From Thermoplasmata archaeon (GTDB lineage: Archaea > Thermoplasmatota > Thermoplasmata > Lutacidiplasmatales > UBA184), in NCBI GenBank assembly GCA_021798195.1, contig JAJZYH010000001.1:4351-68350 (forward strand): 64,000 nt of DNA. The letters are read 5' to 3'. Below, in pieces: positions 1 through 11,801 of the stretch; the first letter of the stretch is position 1, and each line of letters opens with the position of its first letter. A program made the position numbers and the translations under genes. The notes beneath the pieces were generated by a model, which did no database searches, had not been told where the DNA came from, and saw only the letters and a program-made list of their open reading frames with translations.

Positions 1-342
1 GGGTGGACCACCCTCAACGTCTCGGGATCGACGATCGATCTCGAGGCGCTGAACGGGACCGCCATGGCCAAGGTCCTGGGACTGGACCAGCTCTCCGCGG
101 GCCAGTACACGCAGGTACGGCTTGCGGTAACCCACGTGGCCGTGGTGTTCACCAACGGGTCCAACGTGACCGCGATGCTCACCTCCGCGAACAGCGCGGA
201 TGTGAATGTTGCGTTCACGGTCCACCCGGGGATGACCACGGTGCTGGACATCGACGTCAACCTGGCCACCAGCGTGCATGTGACCGGGGGCGTCGTGATG
301 TTCACGCCCAACATCGGCTCCGTGGTGGTCTCGGGATCGTAA
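1..342 (+). CDS. Secreted/surface protein, C-terminal fragment (DUF4382-like beta-rich domain); 5' end lies outside the window
   Basis: Frame 1 is open from base 1 (GWTTLNVSGSTIDLEALNGTAMAKVLGLDQ...VVSGS*). The sequence is Thr/Val/Asn-rich with repeated beta-strand-like pattern and N-x-S/T sequons. The family assignment is from memory only. Confidence 0.5.
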   Translation, partial: GWTTLNVSGSTIDLEALNGTAMAKVLGLDQLSAGQYTQVRLAVTHVAVVFTNGSNVTAMLTSANSADVNVAFTVHPGMTTVLDIDVNLATSVHVTGGVVMFTPNIGSVVVSGS

Positions 343-498
343 GCGCCTGGAACCGAAGAGAGCCAACCCTTTCCCCCTCTCCTTTTGTCCTGTCCCCGGG
401 CACCGACACCGTGCCTTGGGGACTTCTTCACTACCGGAAGAGAGATCCTTGGGGGACCGCCCGGATCCGTGCGTCCGGGAGATCCGGGCGCCGCGGGC

Positions 499-861
499 TC
501 ATCGCGGCTGCGACGTGGCCACCTTGCCCAGGCTCCCCAGATACTCCACGAGGACATCGCGGATGAGGTCGAAGGCCCGCATGAGCCGCTCGTCCCGGAG
601 ACGATAGTAGACCTGCGTCCCGGCCCGTCGGTCCACGACGACGCCCCACTGGCGCATGGCGGCGAGATGTTTCGATACGCTGGGCTGGGACTGCCCGGTC
701 GCCTTCACGAGGTCCCCCACGGAGCGTTCCCCCTTCCGGAGGAGGTCCAAGATGGCAAGGCGCGTCGGGTGCGTGAACGCCTGGCAGAAATCCGCATGGA
801 GCTGCGCGAGACGCCGGACATCGGGCGTCCCAGAGGGGGATCCCCGGGGCACGGGTATCAC
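499..861 (-). CDS. ArsR/SmtB family metalloregulatory transcription factor
   Basis: It has the HTH motif PTRLAILDLLRKGERSVGDLVKATGQSQPSVSKHLAAMRQWGVV and the wing YYRL. Its start overlaps the stop of the upstream DUF302 gene. Confidence 0.85.
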   Translation of the reverse strand: MIPVPRGSPSGTPDVRRLAQLHADFCQAFTHPTRLAILDLLRKGERSVGDLVKATGQSQPSVSKHLAAMRQWGVVVDRRAGTQVYYRLRDERLMRAFDLIRDVLVEYLGSLGKVATSQPR

Positions 862-1310
862 CCTGTGACGGCCGATGGGGAAGGAACGTGCGTGGGGAGG
901 GTAGGCCCCCCCGCGGCCTCATCCACCGCTTCCATGAGAAGCTGTTCCACCTCCCACGCGATGCCCCGCAATCCGGAGGGCGGGTTCAGCACGCCGATCA
1001 ATTCCGTGGGACGCGGGAGATCGATCCGCGTCCGACCCTCATGATGCGAGAGCACGATCTTGCACGGGAGGAGCCAGGCGGCCTCCGGATGCACGGCGAG
1101 GATCCGGTGGGCATGGCGCGGAGAGCATACGTCCAGGATGACGAGGTCTTCCTGGGAGGTTCCCAGCTTTTCCCGGAGCTGCCGGGCGACGTCCAGGGTC
1201 GCGAGGATACCGAAACCCCGGATCTTGAGGGCGGGCTCCAGGCGGTGGAGGATCCCCGAGAGATCCTCCGGAACTTCTCGCCGGTAGACGAAGTCCCCCA
1301 CGAGTATCAC
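858..1310 (-). CDS. DUF302 domain protein
   Basis: C-terminal 150 aa of the 858..2138 ORF: GFGILATLDV...DLVILDVCSPRHAHRIL...AAWLLPCKIVLSHHEG matches the DUF302 pattern. A GTG start at 1308-1310 overlaps the trx stop (GTGA). Confidence 0.7.
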   Translation of the reverse strand: MILVGDFVYRREVPEDLSGILHRLEPALKIRGFGILATLDVARQLREKLGTSQEDLVILDVCSPRHAHRILAVHPEAAWLLPCKIVLSHHEGRTRIDLPRPTELIGVLNPPSGLRGIAWEVEQLLMEAVDEAAGGPTLPTHVPSPSAVTG

Positions 1311-1804
1311 TCCGCACCCACAGGGCCCAGGGACCGCTGGATCTGCGCAAGGAGCGTGCCCTTGGGCTGGAGACCCACGGACCTGCCCGCGAGCTTCCCA
1401 CCGCGGAAGAATAGGAGGGTGGGGATCCCTTGCACGCCGAACTGAGCGGAGAGGACCGGCTCGTCGTCCGCATTCACCTTGGCGAACCGGACCTTCCCCC
1501 GGAGCTCCCGCGCCAGGGAATCCAGGATCGGAGCGAGTTGCCGGCACGGGCCGCACCAGGGAGCCCAGACATCCACCACCACGCGCTCGTTCTGGCGCAC
1601 GAACTCCGGGAACGTCGCCTGGGTCAGGTGCACCGTGAGAGGTTCCGGGGCCCCGCGGGGGGCACCGGACACGTCCCCGGGCCCCTTCTGGGTCCGGAGG
1701 ATCTCCTTGACGACGCGCGCACGAGCCTCCATGAGCGCGTCCAGGTCCTCGGTAGGTGTCGAAGCTCCAGGGGTGGGGTCGGGGTTCGAAACGTCGGTGG
1801 GCAT
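1307..1804 (-). CDS. Thioredoxin
   Basis: WCGPC active-site motif (VVVDVWAPWCGPCRQLAP) within a thioredoxin fold. An AT-rich TATA-like element (tatataactataat, about 1843-1856) lies about 40 bp upstream. Confidence 0.9.
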   Translation of the reverse strand: MPTDVSNPDPTPGASTPTEDLDALMEARARVVKEILRTQKGPGDVSGAPRGAPEPLTVHLTQATFPEFVRQNERVVVDVWAPWCGPCRQLAPILDSLARELRGKVRFAKVNADDEPVLSAQFGVQGIPTLLFFRGGKLAGRSVGLQPKGTLLAQIQRSLGPVGAE

Positions 1805-1840
1805 ACCAATTCCTCCAGTGAGGAAGAAGAGGGGAACATG

Positions 1841-1858
1841 CGTATATAACTATAATGG
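1841..1858 (-). promoter_or_regulatory. AT-rich TATA-box-like element upstream of the trx-DUF302-arsR operon
   Basis: An isolated AT-rich block (cgtatataactataatgg) sits in an otherwise roughly 70% GC context, 35-50 bp upstream of the trx start codon. Confidence 0.45.
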
Positions 1859-1882
1859 AATAATGTGCCCCAGCGCCCGGGC

Positions 1883-2302
1883 TCAACCGATCCAGTTCCA
1901 GAAGTCGTCCTGCCAGAGATCCGGGGTCTCCCGGACATGGCGCAGGCGGACCGGGACAAGTCCGTTGCGTTGGGCCCGGTGGAACGCGGCCCGGAGTTCG
2001 TCCTGGCTCTGCTGTGAGAGGCGGTCCAGCATGTCCCGGAGGTCGTGGGCGAGGCCGAGGTCGAGGATCCGGTCCGGATGTCGGATCACCAGGCGGAAAT
2101 GATGGCGGCCGGACTCTTCCACCCGCAGGACCTGCCACTGGAGCGTTTCCCCCCGTCGCGATTCCAGCTGGTAGGCGGCAAGGTTCCCCAGCGCTTCGGC
2201 CACGAAGTTCTCATCGGGGATACCGGGCGTCAGATGGATGTCGATGTCCACTCCCCGGGGCATGCGTGCGTGAACCTCCCACCTTTCCGGAACGCGCGCC
2301 AT
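1883..2302 (-). CDS. Hypothetical protein (139 aa)
   Basis: Coherent, non-low-complexity ORF (MARVPERWEVHARMPRGVDIDIHLTPGIPDENFVAEALGNL...). I do not recognise a family. Confidence 0.45.
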   Translation of the reverse strand: MARVPERWEVHARMPRGVDIDIHLTPGIPDENFVAEALGNLAAYQLESRRGETLQWQVLRVEESGRHHFRLVIRHPDRILDLGLAHDLRDMLDRLSQQSQDELRAAFHRAQRNGLVPVRLRHVRETPDLWQDDFWNWIG

Positions 2303-2435
2303 ACCATAAGGCTCCCGGAGGGGTCTTCCGCGAAGCTACGGGAGAAGCGAGGGTACGGTGCCCACCGGCATTCGGGAGACGCGGGAGAGCCCGCCTCGGG
2401 TGGTCGGGGAGGCTCATTAAAAGGGATTCCTGCCA

Positions 2436-2806
2436 TGCCTTTCACGGGCGGAGAGGGGGGCACGATGGTCGCGGCGTCCGTGATAGTCGGCGTCATCCTC
2501 CTCCTCGTGGGAGTCGTTCTGATCGTCACGATCGTGGGGGCCGTGCTGGGAGTCGTGCTCCTCATCGCCGGGATCACCGTGATCGTGCTGGGACTGTGGA
2601 CCGCTCCGCACGCGTCCCCTCCCGCAATCTACATGGTCCCCCCCATGACCCACACCCCCCCTCCCCCCGTTGTCGTCAACGTCCACCAACCCGGGCCTCC
2701 CCATCCTGCGCCCCCTCCCCCTCAGGTAATGTTCCGTTGCCGGTACTGCCAATCGGTCTACCCGGAGACCCTGGGACGCTGCCCCCGATGTGGCGCGGGA
2801 TTCTGA
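2436..2806 (+). CDS. Small membrane protein with proline-rich linker and C-terminal zinc-ribbon (CxxC...CxxC)
   Basis: Internal ATG at 2436 lies downstream of the convergent minus-strand gene. Two predicted TM helices (VIVGVILLLVGVVLIVTIVGAVLGVVLLIAGITVIVLGLW) are followed by a P-rich segment and RCRYCQSVYPETLGRCPRCG. Confidence 0.6.
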
Positions 2807-3114
2807 GGAGGGGAGACGAATCCCCCGGCAGTTTCTGCGACGTGGGCGACAAAGCTCAGCCAGGATGGGTTGCCGCACGCCTTCCAATGGACGCGTCGCA
2901 TCGGATCCTTCCCGACTCTCCGGGGTCCTGATCACAGAGATGCACACGTGATCCGGCCCATTCCGGGATAGATTGCTATCACGGGATCGCATCCGCTTTC
3001 ACCGAAATGCCAAGGCAACGCGATGAGTCCGTTCCCACCGGGATGTCCTTCTCCGGCGATCTTTCGCCGCTGTGGTGTTGCGGCTCCAATCCCTGAGGTA
3101 GGTTCCACTTGGCG

Positions 3115-3124
3115 CATTATATGG
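3115..3124 (+). promoter_or_regulatory. TATA-box (cattatatgg) about 25 bp upstream of ATG 3146
   Basis: The spacing is that of a classical archaeal leaderless promoter. This supports 3146 rather than 3023 as the start. Confidence 0.5.
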
Positions 3125-3145
3125 TTGGATAACGTAGGGGAAGTC

Positions 3146-4126
3146 ATGGACGTTCCTCCGTCGGTGCGGAGGTGGCTGACCGGTGCCCGGGCGGATCCGA
3201 GCGTCCGTTTCCGTTATTGGACGGAGGTAGAAGGCCGTTCTCCGGGAGATGCGCGGGTGCGCCGGTCGCGGGAGGCGATCGGCCGCACCGGGTGGGCGGC
3301 GAAGCTCCTCGCATCGCAGTTCCGGGATGGGCACTGGGCCACCCCCGGGAACTCGGCCGAGGAACTCTACTACCCCAAGTACACCACGACCAACTGGATG
3401 GTCATCGTCCTGGCGGACCTGGGCATGACCCGCTCCGACCCGCGCGTCCGGCGCGCGGCGGAACTTCTCATGGACCGATGGAGCCGGCGCGGCCGAGACC
3501 TATCCGGTCGGACCGGCGAGATCTGTGCCACCGGGAACGCGGTGCGGTCCCTCATTCGGATCGGCTACCGGGACCACCCCGTGGTCCAGCGGGCGATCGA
3601 CTGGATCCTCCGGACCCAGAAGCCCGATGGGGGCTGGCACTGCTTTCCCTCGAAGTCCGGGACCCTCGATGGTTGGGAAGGCCTGGCCGCCCTGGCAGAG
3701 ATCCCCGTGGCGGACCGGGGCGAGGCGGTGCACACTGCCATCCAGCGAGGGGCCGAGTTCTACCTCTCCCGTCACCTCATGGAGGAGGGCCGGGTCCGCT
3801 ACCCTCCCTGGTTCCGGATCCACTACCCCACCCACTACTACTATGACGTCCTGGTCGGGCTCCGGATCCTCACGCGGCTCGGGTACGGTTCGGATCCCCG
3901 CCTCCAGCCCGCTCTTCGCTGGTTACTGGGAAAGCGGCGCCCCGACGGGATATGGGCTCTCGACGCGGACCATCCCGATCTGGACCCGGAAAGGGGCGGG
4001 TACGCCTTCCGGGGTCCGGTGTTCCCCCTTCGTCTGGAGCCTCCGGGTCCACCCAGCCAATGGGCGACGGTGGAGGCGTTGAGCGTTCTTGCTCGGGTAG
4101 GCCGACCGGATATACCACCGGGTTGA
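3146..4126 (+). CDS. Prenyltransferase/squalene-cyclase-repeat (alpha/alpha-toroid) protein
   Basis: Repeated QW-like motifs: QFRDGHWATPG, RTQKPDGGWHCF, GKRRPDGIWALD. About 326 aa, a single toroid domain. Confidence 0.7.
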   Translation: MDVPPSVRRWLTGARADPSVRFRYWTEVEGRSPGDARVRRSREAIGRTGWAAKLLASQFRDGHWATPGNSAEELYYPKYTTTNWMVIVLADLGMTRSDPRVRRAAELLMDRWSRRGRDLSGRTGEICATGNAVRSLIRIGYRDHPVVQRAIDWILRTQKPDGGWHCFPSKSGTLDGWEGLAALAEIPVADRGEAVHTAIQRGAEFYLSRHLMEEGRVRYPPWFRIHYPTHYYYDVLVGLRILTRLGYGSDPRLQPALRWLLGKRRPDGIWALDADHPDLDPERGGYAFRGPVFPLRLEPPGPPSQWATVEALSVLARVGRPDIPPG

Positions 4127-4597
4127 TGGGGAGATGCATCTCATCAGTCGTGCCATGAATGAATCACGCCGCGCACGAGATTCTGGCACATGGTCGAAGA
4201 AGAGCTGCAGCACTGTGGCGAGATGAACGCTCTCTTGTGGCACCGCGGATGGGAGGCACCGGGCGTGGGGTACCACGAATGGACCTGGGAGTGGGGGGCG
4301 ACTAAGGAACGGGTGCGCGGCTCAGCTGTTACCTCTTTGCCTCAAGATAGAATGGGTACGGACCCTCAGGTCTCCGACCGTTCTCCACTGCGCTCGGACG
4401 AACTGAAGGATGGCCTCTCGCTGTGGTTGGGTCAGCCTTAGACTTCCACCCCGGGGGCTTGGGAGGCGATTTGCGCCTTGCGGCGCTCGGTGTAGCCCCG
4501 GACCCCGTGGGGGTAGGCGAAGGGGTACCTGGTGGTCTCCCTCCGGCGAGCCATCCCGCTGAGAGAAGGGAGTGCAAGGATAGGAACTGAAGTGAAG

Positions 4598-4682
4598 TGC
4601 AGGGGGAGGGATTTGAACCCACGAACTCCTACGAGACCAGACCCTGAATCTGGCGCCTTTGACCAAGCTAGGCTACCCCTGC
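4598..4682 (-). tRNA. tRNA-Leu (anticodon CAG), long variable arm
   Basis: The reverse complement reads GCAGGGGTAGCCTAGCTTGGTCAAAGGCGCCAGATTCAGGGTCTGGTCTCGTAGGAGTTCGTGGGTTCAAATCCCTCCCCCTGC. The 7-bp acceptor stem pairs, the anticodon loop is TTCAGGG, the T-loop is GGTTCAAATCC, and a 14-nt variable arm gives about 85 nt. There is one T-stem mispair (T-T) in my hand-fold. CCA is not encoded. A TATA-like ataaaag lies about 30 bp upstream (4712-4718). Confidence 0.75.
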
Positions 4683-4748: not shown

Positions 4749-6326
4749 CTAGGAGAACAGGGAAGGGACCTCCGGGTCGATCTCGACGTTCAGGAGGCGG
4801 GGGCCGGGGGAATCCCGGAGCTCCCGGAGGGCCGGAGCGAGTTCTCCGGGCTCCTTCACGGTTTCCGCGGGGACCCCCATGGATCGCGATACGCCCACGA
4901 CATCCAAGCCGGGAATCTGGAGGAAGGGGGCATCCGTGAGAGCCGGATGGAAGCTCTTGGAGTAGCTCCGCAGGATGGAGTACCCGTGGTTGTTGAGCAC
5001 GAGAACCTTCGCGGGAATCCCCTCCCGGGCCAGTGTCCAGAGCGCCTGCGGAGAATAGAGCAAGGCGCCGTCGCCCACCACCGCAAGGGTCCGGGGCCGG
5101 GCCAGACCCGCCCCCACGGCGGCGGCGAGGGCCCAGCCCATCTGGCCGCTGCGCGATGCGAGGTAGCTATCCTTCCCCCGGTAAAAGCCAACCCGTTTCA
5201 GCACCGGGGTATTGGAGACCGCCTCGTCGAGCACCAGGTGCTCCTCGAAGAGGGATGCCACCGAATCCAGGACGAACTCGGCCCCCATGGTGGCCCGGGA
5301 CCGGGCCACCCGACCGGCCCGTCCGAGGTCCCGGGGACGGCGGAAGGTCCCCGATCGCGGGGGCAGTTTGGCGAGAAGCGCGGCGAGACCCTCCCGGCAG
5401 GGGCCCACCAGGGATTCCCGGATCCCCAGCAGCCGCGGTACCTCCGCGTCCGTTCCCAGGTACAAGACCCGCTTCCCCTGGAGGAGGGGCGACGCCGTGT
5501 ACGGGTAGAGCGTGAGCGCCCCTCCCACGAGGAGCACCACGTCATGGAGTGCGAGGGACGCATTGATCATGGCCGACGCGGGGAGGAGGTCTCCCATGAA
5601 GTGGGCGGAGTCCGCGGCCACGGGGGCCCGGGAAGCGAGAGGCTCCGCGTAGATGGGACACTGCAAACGGTCCGCGAGCGCTTCCAGCTCCCCGAATGCG
5701 TCGTCGATGTCCACCTCGTACCCGGCGACGATCACCGGATTCGTTGCCGACCTCAGTGCCTCCACCACCGGAGCCACATCACCGGACACTGCAATCGGAG
5801 GCTGCGAAGGTGGGAGCGGATCTCGTCCCTCATAAGGGGTTTCCATGAGGTCCATGGGTAGGCCCACCACGACGGGCCCCCAGGGACGCGACGAGGCGAT
5901 CTCCCACGCACGGGTCAGGACCGGGACCACGTCCCGTCCCTCGTCCACGGTGAGATATCCCTTGGAGACCGGCCGCACCATGGCCCCGATGTCGCCGGAG
6001 AGCAGGGGGTGCAGGGCCCGATGCCTCCGATCCTGCTCTCCCACCGTGACCACCAGCGGGGACCGGTTCCGGAGCGCGGTATCCAGGAAGGCCATGGAGT
6101 TCCCCACCCCCGGGGCCGCGTGCAGGTTCACGAGCGCCGGTCGACGCAGGACCTGGGCGTACGCGTCCGCGGCCCCCACGGCGAGTCCGTCGTGAAGCGA
6201 CAGCACGTACCGCTGAACGATGTCCGCAAGGAACGGGAGCTCGGTGTTCCCGGGGTTTCCGAAGATCAACTCCATTCCCATGGCGCGCAGCGCCCGGGAA
6301 ATTTCTCCGGCCACTGTGGATGCCAT
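4749..6326 (-). CDS. Thiamine-pyrophosphate-dependent enzyme (acetolactate synthase large-subunit / sulfoacetaldehyde acetyltransferase-like)
   Basis: 525 aa with an N-terminal Pyr domain (GNPGNTELPF), a central domain, and a C-terminal TPP-binding domain with the GDGALLYSPQAL...NNHGY motif. Confidence 0.85.
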   Translation of the reverse strand: MASTVAGEISRALRAMGMELIFGNPGNTELPFLADIVQRYVLSLHDGLAVGAADAYAQVLRRPALVNLHAAPGVGNSMAFLDTALRNRSPLVVTVGEQDRRHRALHPLLSGDIGAMVRPVSKGYLTVDEGRDVVPVLTRAWEIASSRPWGPVVVGLPMDLMETPYEGRDPLPPSQPPIAVSGDVAPVVEALRSATNPVIVAGYEVDIDDAFGELEALADRLQCPIYAEPLASRAPVAADSAHFMGDLLPASAMINASLALHDVVLLVGGALTLYPYTASPLLQGKRVLYLGTDAEVPRLLGIRESLVGPCREGLAALLAKLPPRSGTFRRPRDLGRAGRVARSRATMGAEFVLDSVASLFEEHLVLDEAVSNTPVLKRVGFYRGKDSYLASRSGQMGWALAAAVGAGLARPRTLAVVGDGALLYSPQALWTLAREGIPAKVLVLNNHGYSILRSYSKSFHPALTDAPFLQIPGLDVVGVSRSMGVPAETVKEPGELAPALRELRDSPGPRLLNVEIDPEVPSLFS

Positions 6327-6354: not shown

Positions 6355-7248
6355 TCACTGGGGGTCGGGGAGGTGGTCCACCCGATAGAGGGGATCCTTT
6401 CCCTGGAGGAAGCGCAGGACGTTCTTCACCGTCTCCGCCACGAAGCGTTCCTGGGCCTCCCGGGTGGCACCGGCCACGTGCGGCGTGTAGAAGGTGCCGG
6501 GCGCCTGGAAGAGGGAGTCGGAGAAATCCGGAGGTTCCTCCGGGTACACGTCCAGCGCGAGGTGGATCTTCCCCTCGGCCACCAGCGGTCGGACCGCGCC
6601 GAGATCCACCACCTCCGCCCGGGCGGTATTGACCAGGATGGCTCCCGGTTTCATCCGACCCAGGAGCGACGCGTTCACCATGCCCTGCGTGGCGGGGACG
6701 AGAGGCACGTGCAGGGAGACGATGTCGGCGCTCTCGAAGAGGGTCGGGAGGTCCACATAGGTGAGGCCCAGCCGCCGCTCCTCCTCCGGAGAAGGACGCA
6801 CCGTGTCGTAGTAGATGGTGGAGGTCTCGAACGGGAGGAGGCGCGTGGCGAGGGCCCGGCCGATCCGTCCCATCCCCACGATCCCGAACACCTTCCCGCC
6901 CAGATCATGGGCGTCGGTGAGGAGGGGCCACTCACCCTTCCGGATCTGGCTGTCCAGCTGGTGGGCCCGCCGGAGGAGGATGAGAGCGCTCAGGATCACG
7001 TGCTCCGCCACCGAGGCCGAGTTCGCCACGGGGACGTTGGCGACGCGGATCCCCCGGGACCGGCACGCCGCGAGGTCCACGGCGTCATACCCCGTGCTGG
7101 CCACCTGGATGAACTTCAGGGCCGGCAGGCGCTCAATGACGTCGCCGGGTAAGAGCGTGAAGGTGGTGAGGATGAGGACGTCGATCTGGTCCAGGGGGAA
7201 CTTCCCCGGGTCCAGGGGCTCCTCCACGATGTCCAGATCCGGAAGCAC
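6355..7248 (-). CDS. D-isomer-specific 2-hydroxyacid dehydrogenase (glyoxylate reductase/PGDH-like)
   Basis: C-terminal about 300 aa of the 6355..8322 ORF: NAD-binding GIVGMGRIGRALA, catalytic region ...NTARAEVVDL..., C-terminal HVAGATREA. The N-terminal 355 aa of that ORF is antisense to the arginase-like gene and is rejected. The GTG start at 7246-7248 is a guess; the true start may be slightly upstream. Confidence 0.75.
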   Translation of the reverse strand: MLPDLDIVEEPLDPGKFPLDQIDVLILTTFTLLPGDVIERLPALKFIQVASTGYDAVDLAACRSRGIRVANVPVANSASVAEHVILSALILLRRAHQLDSQIRKGEWPLLTDAHDLGGKVFGIVGMGRIGRALATRLLPFETSTIYYDTVRPSPEEERRLGLTYVDLPTLFESADIVSLHVPLVPATQGMVNASLLGRMKPGAILVNTARAEVVDLGAVRPLVAEGKIHLALDVYPEEPPDFSDSLFQAPGTFYTPHVAGATREAQERFVAETVKNVLRFLQGKDPLYRVDHLPDPQ

Positions 7249-7407
7249 CGGGAGGACCCGCTGTCGGATCTCCTCGACGGGAAGGAAGGGGGGGGAGGAC
7301 CGCCCGGACCGCCATGGCCTTCCCGAACATCGCCGGAGCCATAGCCCTTCTCCCCCACCGACCCACGCATCACCCAGATAATCCCCGATGGAGTTCCCTC
7401 CCGCAGC

Positions 7408-8271
7408 ATGCCGGTGCACGTGGTGGGGGTGCCCTGGGACCAGAGCTCCCTGGGCCGGAGGGGGAGCCGGTTCGCCCCGGAGGCGATCCGCCGGGAGATG
7501 CTCTCCCTTTCCCCCTACGATCTCGCCCGGGGAGCCCCCCTGGAGTGGGTCCAGGCCCGGGAGCTCTCCCTGGGGGAGGACCGGTCCGACCTCCGTCGGA
7601 CCCTGGGACGTACCCTGGACTCGCTCCGGACCAAGGAACCGCAGTGGCCCGTCTTCCTCGTGGGCGGGGACCAGGGGGTGACCCACGAGGCGGTCCGCCA
7701 TCTGGGGAAGGAGCTGGATCTCGGGCTCGTCGTCCTCGACGGGCGATTGGACATGGCCGCCGAAGGGGGGGAACCGAACCACGGGAACTGGCTCCGGCTC
7801 CTCCTGGAGGAGCGCTTCCTTCCCACGGAAGTCCTCGGGATCGGGCGCTTCGCCACATCCCCCACCGCGGTGGCGGCGGCCCACCGGTTGGACGTGGATT
7901 GGGTTCCCGCGGAGTCCATCCATCGAGAGGGAAAGGGCTCCCCTCGTCGCCGGTCCGGCCGCCTTCGCGACCGGCCCCTCTACGTCTCGGTGGACATGTC
8001 CGTCTTCGCCAACCCATGGGTGCCCGGGATCCCCATCGCGGAACCGGGGGGCCTGAGCTTCCCCGAGGTGATTGCCCTCCTCACGGGGTGGCTCCGAACG
8101 GGACGGGTGGTGGCCCTGGACGTCACGGAGGTGAATCCGACCCTCGATCCCACGGGGACCTCGGTCCGGACCGCCACCCACACGCTCCTCTCCGCCCTGG
8201 CCGCTCTTCCGGGTCCCCCTGTCGGACCCTCCCGCCTCAAATACCCGTCCCCCGGTACGGACCGGGGATGA
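7408..8271 (+). CDS. Arginase/agmatinase (ureohydrolase) family protein with degenerate metal-binding motifs
   Basis: N-terminal VVGVPWD...RFAPEAIR and C-terminal ...PGIPIAEPGGLSFPEVIAL match the family. However GGDHS is GGDQGVTH here, DAHxD is DGRLDM, and SxDxDxxDP is SVDMSVFANP. Confidence 0.8.
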   Translation: MPVHVVGVPWDQSSLGRRGSRFAPEAIRREMLSLSPYDLARGAPLEWVQARELSLGEDRSDLRRTLGRTLDSLRTKEPQWPVFLVGGDQGVTHEAVRHLGKELDLGLVVLDGRLDMAAEGGEPNHGNWLRLLLEERFLPTEVLGIGRFATSPTAVAAAHRLDVDWVPAESIHREGKGSPRRRSGRLRDRPLYVSVDMSVFANPWVPGIPIAEPGGLSFPEVIALLTGWLRTGRVVALDVTEVNPTLDPTGTSVRTATHTLLSALAALPGPPVGPSRLKYPSPGTDRG

Positions 8272-8345
8272 CGCAGCGGGGACGCCGGCGGGCCACCCCC
8301 GCCGTCCGGAAGCGCCCCGCATCCCCGCGTCCTGCGCGCACCCCT

Positions 8346-8777
8346 GTGGACCCGGCCCGGGTCCCGCCCGCGATCCTGCGATACCTCAAGGAGTGCCACG
8401 GGCGCCGGACCGCGGCGGAGATCGCGGCGGGGATCGCCCCATCCTTCCCCGGGGCGAACCTCCCCGGATCCGTCGTGGCCCGGGCGCTGGGCCACCTCCT
8501 CGAGGCCGGTGCCATCGTGCAGATCCCCCACCCTTCGGGCCGCTCGTTCCAGTTGGGGGCGGACCTGGGAGAGCCTCCCACGGTCCACCTGATCTGCCAG
8601 CGGTGCGGGCGCCTGGGAAGGGCCCCCCTCACGTCGGAGTGGGAGAAGGACCTCACCGAACTCCCCTCGCTACGGACCGATGGATGGACGGTCTCGGGGG
8701 TCTCGGTGAGCCTGGTGGGCCGGTGCCCGTCCTGCTTGTCCCAGGAGCAAGAGGTCCCCTCCCAGGGTCCCCCCTAG
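8346..8777 (+). CDS. Fur-family (ferric/zinc uptake regulator-like) transcriptional regulator
   Basis: Putative GTG start. It has a winged-helix N-terminus (PAILRYLKECHGRRTAAEIAAGIA) and a C-terminal HLICQRCG...GRCPSC metal-binding motif. Confidence 0.65.
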   Translation: MDPARVPPAILRYLKECHGRRTAAEIAAGIAPSFPGANLPGSVVARALGHLLEAGAIVQIPHPSGRSFQLGADLGEPPTVHLICQRCGRLGRAPLTSEWEKDLTELPSLRTDGWTVSGVSVSLVGRCPSCLSQEQEVPSQGPP

Positions 8778-10724: not shown

Positions 10725-11801
10725 TCAGGAGGTGGGCGCGGGTGGCTCCGCCCGGGCGGGCGGCGCAGTGGCCGCCATGGCCTGCGTGCTCACCGAGTGG
10801 TTGATGGCGATCTCCGCGAGGTCGCTGGCGTAGAGCCCCGTCCGTTCGAGGCTCTCCAGGACGTACGCGAGGGCCACGGCGACGCGACCGGGGCGGGCAA
10901 GGAACTCGTCGAGGAGCTTCCGGCGCTGGGCCACGAGACGCTCCATGGCGTCGAGGACCTCGTTGGCCCGCTGGGTATCCCCCGAGTAGAGGGTGTCCAC
11001 CGCCGCCCGGAGGCCCTCGAGGGCGCTCGCGGAGAGGCGCGAGAACTCCGCGAGGGAATCCGGCGGGAGCTTGGACCCCTTGGTGAGCTCGGTCACCTCG
11101 GCGATGCGCACCGCGTGGTCCGCGATCCGCTCCAGGACGCGGGAGGCCAGGAGGAAGGTGGCGCACTCCGGGAAGGTGAGCCCCAGCGCGGTGAGGGCGC
11201 GCTGGTCCCGGAGCGCGGTGGTCACCTGCTTCTGGACGAACCAGTGGAGCCGGTCCACCTCCCAGTCCCTCTCCCGCACGTCCTCGGCGATGGCCATGTC
11301 CTGGTGCAGGAAGGCCGCCATGGCATCGGTCTGCATGGTCTCCACCATGTGATGCATGCGCCGGACCACCGAGGTGAGCGGGAGTGGATTGGCGCCCACC
11401 ACGTCCTGGAGGATCACGGCGTCCCCCGATTCCTCCAGGATCTCGGGCCCGATGACGCGCTGGGCGAACTCCCGGATCACCTCCCGCGTCCGGGCGCTCA
11501 TGCGCCCGTTGGTCCGGATCTCGAGGAGGGGACCCCCGGCGATGTACTCCGCCACGAGCTGCCGGAAGAGGTGGTCCTTGGGGAGGGAGTTGGTGACGGT
11601 CACCACGCGCCGATGCCGCTCGGATCGGGGCGTCTCCTCCGTGTAGATGGTGAGAGATCCATCCGCCCCGGGGGAGAACAGGAGGAGGTCGCCGGCCCGG
11701 AGCCCTCGCGACGTGGCCCACGTCTTGGGCAGCGAGACGATGAACGTGCTGCCGCCTGTGCGCTGGATCCTCCGACCCTCGAAGCCCCCCTGCGTCCGCA
11801 T
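10725..11801 (-). CDS. Phosphate-uptake-regulator-like protein (N-terminal AbrB/SpoVT swapped-hairpin domain + tandem PhoU domains)
   Basis: N-terminal IVSLPKTWATSRGLRAGDLLLF, then two PhoU-like helical repeats (ERIADHAVRIAE). Confidence 0.8.
   Translation of the reverse strand: MRTQGGFEGRRIQRTGGSTFIVSLPKTWATSRGLRAGDLLLFSPGADGSLTIYTEETPRSERHRRVVTVTNSLPKDHLFRQLVAEYIAGGPLLEIRTNGRMSARTREVIREFAQRVIGPEILEESGDAVILQDVVGANPLPLTSVVRRMHHMVETMQTDAMAAFLHQDMAIAEDVRERDWEVDRLHWFVQKQVTTALRDQRALTALGLTFPECATFLLASRVLERIADHAVRIAEVTELTKGSKLPPDSLAEFSRLSASALEGLRAAVDTLYSGDTQRANEVLDAMERLVAQRRKLLDEFLARPGRVAVALAYVLESLERTGLYASDLAEIAINHSVSTQAMAATAPPARAEPPAPTS

What the first reader, a model, noticed from the sequence alone, without database searches (positions are those of the whole stretch)
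7408..8777. Arginase-fold protein with substituted Mn-binding residues, adjacent to a Fur-like regulator
The ureohydrolase fold is clear at both termini, but three motifs that supply the binuclear-Mn ligands appear altered. GGDHS is GGDQGVTH here, DAHxD is DGRLDM, and SxDxD is SVDMS. If my alignment is right, the canonical His and Asp ligands are replaced by Gln, Arg and Ser, predicting a non-catalytic or differently metallated pseudo-enzyme. A Fur-family metal regulator is encoded 75 bp downstream on the same strand, suggesting metal-linked regulation or a sensor role.
Basis: partly seen in the sequence, partly recalled or inferred. Interest (0 to 1): 0.5.

Follow-up and report, generated by a model that had tools for sequence, protein, structure and literature searches.

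The report
Archaeal arginase-fold protein lacking metal ligands
An archaeal (Thermoplasmata-like) gene encodes an arginase-family protein that has lost three of the six residues holding the family's two-metal catalytic centre yet is kept by selection, so it is probably one more non-catalytic or re-purposed "pseudo-arginase", a kind of protein already known elsewhere.

Summary
The core observation holds. ORF 7408-8271 (+, 287 aa) is a clear arginase/ureohydrolase-fold protein (PF00491 E=8e-38; AlphaFold model TM 0.82 to B. subtilis formimidoylglutamase 3m1r). Sequence alignments (HMMER to three solved structures, MAFFT of 153 relatives) agree that three of six metal ligands are replaced: His to Gln89, His to Arg113, Asp to Ser198. 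Asp111, Asp115 and Asp196 are kept. Both lost His/Asp ligands of metal site B are gone, so the canonical two-metal chemistry is unlikely.

It is not a decaying gene. All nine near-identical variants are intact, pN/pS is about 0.15-0.2, and a second small Thermoplasmata clade (37-41% identical) has Gln/Ser/Ser at the same positions. That clade shares a tRNA-Leu(CAG) neighbour with the window locus. Closest canonical relatives (37-40% identical) keep all six ligands.

The downstream gene overlaps the stop codon (ATGA at 8268), rather than lying 75 bp away. It is only a sub-threshold Fur/PerR look-alike: the Cys4 zinc site is kept, but 3 of 5 regulatory metal ligands are missing. The sister clade has only its zinc-ribbon half nearby.

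Ligand-depleted arginase-fold pseudoenzymes are already known (MetCb/MfmB, T. brucei TbARG), so this is a new archaeal member of a known kind. Its function is untested. Interest is moderate to low.

The parts
7408..8271 (+). Arginase/ureohydrolase-fold CDS (287 aa) with ligand pattern Q89-D111-R113-D115-D196-S198 in place of H-D-H-D-D-D
   Evidence: ORF; PF00491 at 130.9 bits; alignments; AF2 model pLDDT 80.9 and Foldseek TM 0.82 to 3m1r; pN/pS 0.14-0.21
7672..7674 (+). Codon CAG = Gln89, at the position of the first His ligand (GGDH motif; metal A)
   Evidence: same codon CAG in the sister depleted clade, CAY (His) in canonical sisters
7738..7752 (+). D111-G112-R113-L114-D115, replacing the D-A-H-x-D motif. 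Arg113 (CGA) sits at the His ligand of metal B; both Asp are kept
7993..8001 (+). D196-M197-S198, replacing D-x-D. Ser198 (TCC) sits at the Asp ligand of metal B
   Evidence: the sister clade has Ser encoded by AGC
8268..8777 (+). Downstream CDS (169 aa): basic Arg/Pro-rich tail, winged-helix-like domain, then C-terminal CxxC...CxxC domain (C110, C113, C153, C156). A weak Fur/PerR look-alike whose start overlaps the upstream stop codon (ATGA)
   Evidence: gene calls in six MAG loci; sequence; weak family hits
7376..7382 (+). AGATAAT, the only AT-rich element in the 70% GC intergenic region, 26-32 nt before the ATG. Candidate archaeal TATA box for a leaderless or short-leader transcript (inference only)
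   Evidence: sequence; conserved in the divergent strain L029
4597..4682 (-). tRNA-Leu(CAG), a synteny marker. The same tRNA lies about 100 bp upstream of the ligand-depleted homologues in five Thermoplasmata loci and is absent from the canonical loci
6355..7248 (-). Divergently transcribed D-2-hydroxyacid dehydrogenase (neighbour; not shown to be functionally linked)

Best explanation
The gene encodes a ureohydrolase-fold protein that can no longer assemble the family's binuclear metal centre.

Both ligands unique to metal site B are replaced (His to Arg113, Asp to Ser198), and the His ligand of site A is now Gln89. The two bridging Asp, the third site-A Asp, and the Glu241 and His125 positions are kept. 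Mapping those last two to the guanidinium-binding Glu and the proton-shuttle His of arginase is my own reading, not a tool result.

Without two metals there is no metal-bridging hydroxide, so the canonical amidino/guanidino hydrolysis should be lost. This step is inferred from established arginase chemistry and was not tested here.

The protein is nevertheless kept by purifying selection and shares this remodelling with a second Thermoplasmata clade. It therefore most likely acts as a non-catalytic binding or scaffold protein (a pseudoenzyme). The retained Asp triad plus Gln could still hold one cation or a cationic ligand.

It is translated from a two-gene unit together with a small basic protein carrying a winged-helix-like domain and a Cys4 zinc-ribbon domain, so a partnership between the two is plausible but unproven.
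For: - Fold and family: PF00491 E=8.1e-38; AF2 pLDDT 80.9, pTM 0.84; Foldseek TM 0.81-0.82 to 3m1r, with all top hits ureohydrolases.
- Ligand map Q-D-R-D-D-S from HMMER alignments to three solved structures and from a 153-sequence alignment in which the ligand columns are almost invariant.
- Below every functional equivalog cutoff: hutG 84.8 against 229, agmatinase 69 against 174.
- Not a relic: nine variants at 96-100% identity are all intact and keep Q/R/S. Window versus L029 shows 19 synonymous and 8 non-synonymous differences, pN/pS 0.16.
- A second clade (P0025, P0173-P0176; loci L007, L011, L014, L015), 71-100% identical within itself and 37-41% identical to the window, has Q-D-S-D-D-S. 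Its dN/dS is about 0.33 at dS 0.49.
- The two clades share tRNA-Leu(CAG) synteny, which is absent from canonical loci. They use identical codons at Q12, S14, Q89 and G112.
- Ser198 is TCC in the window and AGC in the sister clade. These Ser codon families cannot interconvert in one step, which argues that Ser itself is selected.
- Of 113 positions invariant in 7 canonical sisters, those changed in both depleted lineages cluster in the catalytic motifs: 12, 14, 89, 90, 95, 112, 113, 117, 125, 150, 198, 202, 209.
- The 4-nt ATGA overlap with the downstream gene is called in all MAG copies.
- Precedent: MetCb-clade proteins carry 3-5 mutated ligands, and recombinant MetCb had no detectable metal by ICP-MS (PMC11271267).
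Against: - No biochemical data exist.
- Three Asp ligands are invariant in both depleted clades. Asn at ligand 1 occurs in 27 of 153 otherwise canonical relatives, including 3m1r. A site-A-like single-metal centre, and some activity, therefore cannot be excluded.
- The model's coordinates could not be inspected, so whether Arg113 fills site B is unknown.
- dN/dS in the depleted clade (0.33) is higher than in the canonical sisters (about 0.2, near saturation), which indicates some relaxation.
- The sequence tree does not resolve whether the two depleted lineages are sisters: bootstrap 0.29, or 0.10 without the ligand columns.
- The partnership with the downstream protein rests on gene overlap alone.
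Confidence: 0.55

Rival explanations
1. It is still an enzyme. A single metal is held by Gln89, Asp111, Asp115 and Asp196 (a site-A-like centre), possibly with the Arg113 guanidinium standing in for the second cation. This centre catalyses hydrolysis of some amidino, guanidino or other substrate by a modified mechanism.
For: - The three Asp ligands, Glu241 and a His at position 125 are retained.
- Asn at ligand 1 is common in otherwise canonical relatives (27 of 153; 3m1r alignment).
- Purifying selection acts on the gene.
- Ser198 appears specifically selected.
Against: - Arg113 is not conserved; it is Ser in the sister clade.
- The catalytic-loop motif SNGNW, invariant in the canonical sisters, is degenerate in the depleted proteins (NHGNW, DARNW, THHNW, NPRNW).
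- From established knowledge, single first-shell ligand substitutions in rat arginase already lower activity by orders of magnitude. Such variants appear among the PDB hits (3rla, 1p8m).
Confidence: 0.25
2. It is the non-catalytic subunit of a hetero-oligomeric ureohydrolase. It pairs with a catalytic paralogue encoded elsewhere in the genome, as MetCb/MfmB pairs with MetCa/MfmA.
For: - The MetCb clade has 3-5 mutated ligands and is required for activity of its partner (PMC11271267).
- Metformin hydrolase chains are among the structural matches, TM 0.76-0.79.
- One MAG (DBS1-1.bin134) holds both a canonical copy (L012) and a depleted copy (L015).
Against: - No second arginase-fold gene occurs in the 64-kb window or within +/-6 kb in six MAG loci, whereas the MetCa/MetCb pairs surveyed in that study were chosen as adjacent genes (less than 2 kb apart).
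- No canonical close relative from the window's NCBI MAGs appeared in the homologue search.
- The DBS1-1 contigs are short with about 1.2-1.3x coverage, so the binning is uncertain.
Confidence: 0.1
3. It is a decaying former enzyme gene with no function, still intact only by chance.
For: - Three catalytic ligands are lost.
- dN/dS is somewhat higher than in the canonical sisters.
- The neighbouring 2-hydroxyacid dehydrogenase is called as two pieces in five of six MAG loci.
Against: - The ORF is intact in all nine variants.
- pN/pS is 0.14-0.21.
- The same remodelled pattern persists across a clade whose members are only 71% identical to each other, with dN/dS 0.33.
- 48 of 113 canonical-invariant positions are still kept in all depleted proteins.
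Confidence: 0.04
4. The ligand substitutions are an alignment artefact, and the true ligands are conserved but shifted.
For: None found.
Against: The GGD, DxxxD and DxD motif columns align without gaps in three HMMER pairwise alignments and four MAFFT alignments. The flanking invariant residues G86, G87, D88, D111, D115 and D196 fix the register.
Confidence: 0.01

Closest known systems
Canonical Thermoplasmata short ureohydrolases (P0024, P0002-P0005; loci L009, L010, L013), an uncharacterised subfamily nearest to formimidoylglutamase/agmatinase
   Same: Same length class (272-287 aa, starting directly at strand 1) and 37-40% identity. Shared motifs include GVPWD, GNW, GRF and EVNPTxDPxG. Same taxon, Thermoplasmata MAGs.
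   Different: They keep all six ligands (H-D-H-D-D-D) and an invariant SNGNW loop. They lack the tRNA-Leu(CAG) neighbour.
Bacillus subtilis formimidoylglutamase HutG (PDB 3m1r)
   Same: Best sequence match (E=1.8e-21) and best structural match (TM 0.82) among solved structures. It also has a non-His residue (Asn) at ligand 1.
   Different: About 25% identity. HutG keeps the other five ligands. The window protein scores 84.8 bits against the hutG equivalog cutoff of 229, and no hut genes lie nearby.
MetCb / MfmB, the metal-free pseudoenzyme subunit of Ni-dependent metformin hydrolase (PDB 8x3g, 8ryi, 8snk; PMC11271267)
   Same: An arginase-fold protein from a prokaryote with 3-5 of 6 ligands mutated, retained by selection for a non-catalytic role. 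Structural match TM 0.76-0.79.
   Different: MetCb is bacterial, is encoded next to its catalytic partner and to Ni chaperones, and has five ligands changed. Here three are changed, and neither an adjacent paralogue nor a chaperone was seen.
Trypanosoma brucei arginase-like protein TbARG (PDB 4rhi, 4rhq; Hai et al. 2015, cited in PMC11271267)
   Same: A stand-alone arginase-fold protein that evolved without the binuclear cluster and has no known function. It appears among the sequence hits.
   Different: It is eukaryotic and only distantly related (E about 1e-5 to 1e-4). I could not read the paper here, so its ligand pattern was not compared.
Fur/PerR family regulators (for example C. jejuni Fur 4ets/6d57, B. 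subtilis PerR 2fe3), compared with the downstream gene
   Same: Colinear weak alignment over the whole protein. Both have a winged-helix region followed by a domain with two CxxC pairs at matching positions.
   Different: All scores are far below family cutoffs. Only 2 of the 5 PerR regulatory-site positions are kept (H37 to R, H91 to T, D104 to R), and there is an extra basic 30-residue tail.

Membership tests
Arginase/ureohydrolase superfamily (Pfam PF00491) | Significant full-length match to the family profile | tested here: met
   130.9 bits against a cutoff of 22, residues 3-263 on profile positions 3-277 of 280
Arginase/ureohydrolase superfamily (Pfam PF00491) | Three-layer alpha/beta/alpha arginase fold | tested here: met
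   AF2 model pLDDT 80.9, pTM 0.84; Foldseek TM 0.81-0.82 to 3m1r, with all 50 top hits ureohydrolases
Arginase/ureohydrolase superfamily (catalytically competent members) | Six metal ligands H, D, H, D, D, D in the GGDH, DAHxD and DxD motifs | tested here: not met
   Q89, D111, R113, D115, D196, S198: only 3 of 6 are kept
Formimidoylglutamase HutG (TIGR01227 equivalog) | Score above the curated equivalog cutoff | tested here: not met
   84.8 bits against 229.15
Formimidoylglutamase HutG (TIGR01227 equivalog) | Histidine-utilisation gene context (hutU, hutI, hutH) | tested here: not met
   Pfam labels of all called genes within +/-6 kb in six MAG loci show none
Agmatinase SpeB (TIGR01230 / PRK02190) | Score above the curated cutoff | tested here: not met
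   69.2 against 174.3, and 62.4 against 302
Ligand-depleted ureohydrolase pseudoenzymes (MetCb/MfmB type) | Three to five of the six coordinating residues mutated | tested here: met
   3 of 6 mutated; criterion taken from PMC11271267
Ligand-depleted ureohydrolase pseudoenzymes (MetCb/MfmB type) | Adjacent gene for a catalytic paralogue (MetCa-like), often with Ni-chaperone genes | tested here: not met
   No second arginase-fold gene in the 64 kb window; none, and no HypA/HypB-type genes, within +/-6 kb
Ligand-depleted ureohydrolase pseudoenzymes (MetCb/MfmB type) | Absence of bound metal and of hydrolase activity | not testable with these tools
   Needs ICP-MS and enzyme assays on recombinant protein
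Fur family (PF01475; NCBIfam Fur/Zur/PerR equivalogs), downstream gene | Profile match above the curated cutoff | tested here: not met
   No PF01475 hit at E<=1; best NCBIfam hit PerR at 22.1 bits against 200
Fur family, downstream gene | Winged-helix DNA-binding domain followed by a dimerisation domain with a structural Cys4 zinc site | tested here: inconclusive
   Two CxxC pairs align with those of Fur/PerR, and the alignment is colinear. The single-sequence AF2 model is unusable at pLDDT 43.
Fur family, downstream gene | Regulatory metal site (PerR H37, D85, H91, H93, D104 or equivalents) | tested here: not met
   The alignment to 2fe3 gives R, D, T, H, R, so 2 of 5 are kept (residue numbering from my knowledge of PerR). 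The alignment itself is weak.

The most novel reading that the evidence does not exclude
The arginase-fold protein is the ligand-sensing subunit of a two-protein transcriptional switch. Its remodelled pocket (Gln89, the Asp triad and a specifically selected Ser198, with Arg113 filling the former metal-B site) binds a cationic metabolite instead of a metal pair. It then controls the co-translated Fur-fold DNA-binding protein, which has itself lost its regulatory metal site. This would be a pseudoenzyme-plus-degenerate-metalloregulator pair unique to a Thermoplasmata lineage.
Probability: 0.1. Interest if true: 0.6.

Novelty: new member of a known kind. Interest (0 to 1): 0.33.

Why it matters
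Pseudoenzymes of the arginase fold have a known function in only one case, MetCb/MfmB. A small archaeal clade that is under selection and has a defined, partial ligand loss (site B only) is a clean test case. It could show what such proteins do and whether a single-metal arginase-fold site can work.

In practical terms, it shows that automatic labels such as 'formimidoylglutamase' or 'arginase family protein' on these Thermoplasmata genes should not be read as enzyme function in metabolic reconstructions. It does not open or settle a long-standing question.

Tried and rejected
- Misalignment of ligands: rejected.
- Pseudogene decay: rejected by intact variants and pN/pS.
- Paralogous catalytic partner nearby: none in the window or flanks.
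- Riboswitch or other RNA element upstream: none in Rfam at E<=1 of any relevance.
- Operator-like palindrome in the 7249-7407 intergenic region: only short, unremarkable inverted repeats.
- Relatives of the downstream protein: the word-index search found only itself. A metagenome pattern scan found none. tblastn on fetched loci found only the zinc-ribbon half in L014.
- Structure of the downstream protein: the single-sequence AF2 model had pLDDT 43, so no fold search was attempted.
- Sequence phylogeny to decide between a single and a parallel ligand loss: NJ with 300 bootstraps was unresolved, and the polarised informative sites (3:1:2) were all in the active site. A first attempt timed out. 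Synteny and codon identity were used instead and favour a single origin, while Ser198 codons differ.
- afdb50 fold search: library unavailable.
- The TbARG paper (PMC4303290) is not held.
- An ungapped SNP histogram upstream of the gene was misleading because of indels; it was corrected by BLAST.

Full report
**What is there.** The window is about 70% G+C. ORF 7408..8271 (+) encodes 287 aa. It matches Pfam Arginase PF00491 end to end (E=8.1e-38, 130.9 bits, residues 3-263 on profile positions 3-277 of 280). It falls far below every NCBIfam functional cutoff: hutG 84.8 against 229, agmatinase 69.2 against 174, arginase 38 against 228. The best solved relative is B. subtilis formimidoylglutamase 3m1r (E=1.8e-21). 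An AlphaFold2 model built from a 16-sequence alignment (pLDDT 80.9, pTM 0.84) superposes on 3m1r with TM 0.81-0.82, and all 50 top Foldseek hits are ureohydrolases. No other arginase-fold gene is in the 64-kb window.

**Ligand map.** Three HMMER pairwise alignments and MAFFT alignments put the three metal-binding motifs in register without gaps.
- GGD-H becomes GGD-Q (Gln89).
- D-A-H-x-D becomes D-G-R-L-D (Asp111, Arg113, Asp115).
- D-x-D becomes D-M-S (Asp196, Ser198).

In rat arginase numbering (from my knowledge of the family) this reads H101 to Q, D124 kept, H126 to R, D128 kept, D232 kept, D234 to S. Both ligands unique to metal B are gone, and the His of metal A is an amide.

In an exhaustive search of 1.84 billion representatives there were 2106 hits at E<=1e-3 but only 4 at E<=1e-30. 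Among the 153 best relatives, ligand 1 is H in 124 and N in 27, and each of the other five positions is canonical in 151-153.

**Is it a dying gene?** No.
- Nine variants at 96-100% identity are all intact and keep Q/R/S.
- Window versus strain L029 differs by 19 synonymous and 8 non-synonymous changes (pN/pS 0.16). Other pairs give 0.14-0.33.
- A second group of proteins (P0025, P0173-P0176; loci L007, L008, L011, L014, L015), 71-100% identical to each other and 37-41% identical to the window protein, carries Gln / Ser / Ser at the same three positions, with the same Ala to Gly change beside the lost His. Its dN/dS is about 0.33 at dS about 0.5.
- The closest other relatives (P0024, P0002-P0005, L009, L010, L012, L013; 37-40% identical) have the full H-D-H-D-D-D set.
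- All of these loci come from Thermoplasmata archaeon MAGs. The window's own MAGs are GCA_027378545.1 and relatives.

**One loss or two?** A neighbour-joining tree does not resolve this. Monophyly of the depleted proteins has bootstrap 0.29, or 0.10 without the ligand columns. The window protein as a basal long branch has 0.28-0.44. The only polarised sites uniting the two depleted groups are the active-site ones.

Independent evidence favours a single origin.
- A tRNA-Leu(CAG) gene lies on the opposite strand about 100 bp upstream of the depleted gene in all five sister loci. It lies 2.7 kb upstream in the window (4597-4682), where a TPP enzyme and a 2-hydroxyacid dehydrogenase sit in between. 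No tRNA is present in the five canonical loci.
- The two groups use identical codons at Q12 (CAG, two steps from the canonical GCG), S14, Q89 and G112.
- Arg113 (CGA) and Ser (AGC) can be linked through CGC.

Ser198, by contrast, is TCC in the window lineage and AGC in the sister clade. These codon families cannot interconvert in one step, which suggests that Ser itself is wanted at this position. Of 113 positions invariant in seven canonical sisters, those changed in both depleted lineages cluster in the catalytic motifs and neighbouring loops: 12, 14, 89, 90, 95, 112, 113, 117, 125, 150, 198, 202, 209. The canonical SNGNW loop is degenerate.

**Mechanistic reading.**
- Shown: the fold, the ligand pattern, its rarity, purifying selection, and a second clade with the same remodelling.
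- Inferred from established arginase chemistry: without metal B there is no metal-bridged hydroxide, so canonical hydrolysis is lost.
- Also inferred: the invariant Asp111/Asp115/Asp196 triad with Gln89 probably still binds one cation or a cationic ligand. Asn at ligand 1 is tolerated in 27 otherwise canonical relatives.

I therefore rank a non-catalytic binding or scaffold role first (0.55) and a modified single-metal enzyme second (0.25). A MetCb-like subunit of a hetero-oligomer comes third (0.10), because no paralogue is nearby. The only MAG with both canonical and depleted types rests on short contigs with about 1.2-1.3x coverage.

**The neighbour.** Gene callers in all MAG copies start the next gene at window 8268, so its ATG overlaps the arginase-like TGA (GGGGATGACG). 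The 169-aa product has three parts: a basic Arg/Pro-rich tail, a winged-helix-like region, and a C-terminal domain with two CxxC pairs.

Pfam gives no FUR hit, only weak AlkZ-like, IclR-HTH and Zn-ribbon hits. NCBIfam PerR, Zur and Fur models hit at 12-22 bits against cutoffs of 167-220. Six PDB Fur/PerR chains hit at E=0.008-0.9, colinearly. In the alignment to PerR 2fe3 the Cys4 site is kept, but the regulatory positions read R, D, T, H, R instead of H, D, H, H, D.

It has no detectable relatives apart from a 105-aa protein in sister locus L014. That protein lies 1.8 kb downstream of the depleted gene, beyond a Zn-ADH and a GNAT. It shares the basic tail and the zinc-ribbon domain (42% identity over 55 aa) but lacks the winged helix. 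A single-sequence AF2 model was unusable.

So this is a Fur-like architecture at best, and nothing supports metal sensing. The tight gene overlap suggests co-expression. An AT-rich AGATAAT at 7376-7382, conserved in a divergent strain, is a candidate archaeal TATA box for the pair (inference). No riboswitch or convincing operator was found.

**Comparison with what is known.** Arginase-fold proteins without a binuclear centre are already described.
- The MetCb/MfmB subunit of metformin hydrolase: its clade carries 3-5 mutated ligands, the protein is metal-free by ICP-MS, and it is essential as a partner.
- T. brucei TbARG.
- The arginase domain of Fusobacterium ODC/arginase.

All three are reported or cited in PMC11271267. 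The present protein meets the ligand-depletion criterion but not the adjacent-partner criterion of the MetCb type. It is archaeal and stand-alone, and it has lost site B only. I file it as a new member of the known kind 'ureohydrolase-fold pseudoenzyme' with unknown function. Interest is moderate to low (0.33).

Noticed in passing
window 4597-4682 (-); L007 2181-2267, L008 201-285, L011 5807-5891, L014 5813-5898, L015 4991-5075: tRNA-Leu(CAG) is a conserved neighbour of the ligand-depleted arginase-like genes. It is absent from the canonical loci L009, L010, L012, L013 and L016. In the window, a TPP enzyme and a 2-hydroxyacid dehydrogenase lie between the tRNA and the gene.
   Followed up: yes
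window 1-4596 compared with L001-L006: Beyond the tRNA-Leu the MAG copies of this species differ completely. L001 has transposase/HTH genes and DUF488. L002 and L005 have a large NHL/PKD protein. L003, L004, L006 and the window have thioredoxin, DUF2004 and a squalene-hopene-cyclase-like gene. This looks like a strain-variable region at a tRNA gene.
   Followed up: partly
window 7125-8130 compared with L029 and L030: Strain mosaic. The 5' part of the arginase-like gene and the region upstream are about 6% divergent between strains (pS 0.08-0.11 in the gene). The overlapping downstream gene and the S9 peptidase are nearly identical (pS 0-0.009). This suggests a recombination boundary inside the gene; both variant contigs also end about 280 bp upstream.
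   Followed up: partly
window 7999-8001 compared with the same codon in L007, L011 and L014: Ser198 is encoded by TCC in the window lineage and by AGC in the sister clade. These are different serine codon families at the position of a lost Asp metal ligand.
   Followed up: yes
L014 8627-8944 (+): A 105-aa ORF has the same Arg/Pro-rich basic tail and CxxC...CxxC domain as the window's 169-aa protein but no winged-helix region. It lies downstream of the depleted arginase-like gene, a Zn-ADH and a GNAT.
   Followed up: partly
L009 9152-10120, L013 9105-10070; L007 3242-4255, L011 6866-7834, L014 6873-7886: A Zn-dependent alcohol dehydrogenase family gene (52% identical between the two sets) lies 2.3 kb downstream of the canonical genes and directly downstream of the depleted genes in the sister clade. 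None is in the window.
   Followed up: partly
window 6355-7248 (-); L001, L002, L004, L005, L006 at 4949-5841: The D-2-hydroxyacid dehydrogenase next door is called as two pieces (108 + 190 aa) in five of six MAG loci. It is intact in L003 and reads through as one ORF in the window. This is either a frameshift polymorphism or an assembly error.
   Followed up: no
window 7289-7296 (intergenic): A run of eight G in the divergent promoter region is GGGTGGG (7 nt) in strain L029. This is a length and sequence polymorphism between the two divergently transcribed genes.
   Followed up: no
protein P0066 (314 aa): Another relative has a different depleted ligand pattern, N-D-N-G-D-D. It may be an independent pseudoenzyme lineage.
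   Followed up: no
window 10725-11801 (-) and about 13.8 kb onward (+): An AbrB/MazE-like domain fused to PhoU (an archaeal-type arrangement) and a sarcosine-oxidase-alpha-like gene (Fer2_4, Fer2_BFD, SO_alpha_A3) lie a few kb downstream. No link to the finding was established.
   Followed up: no
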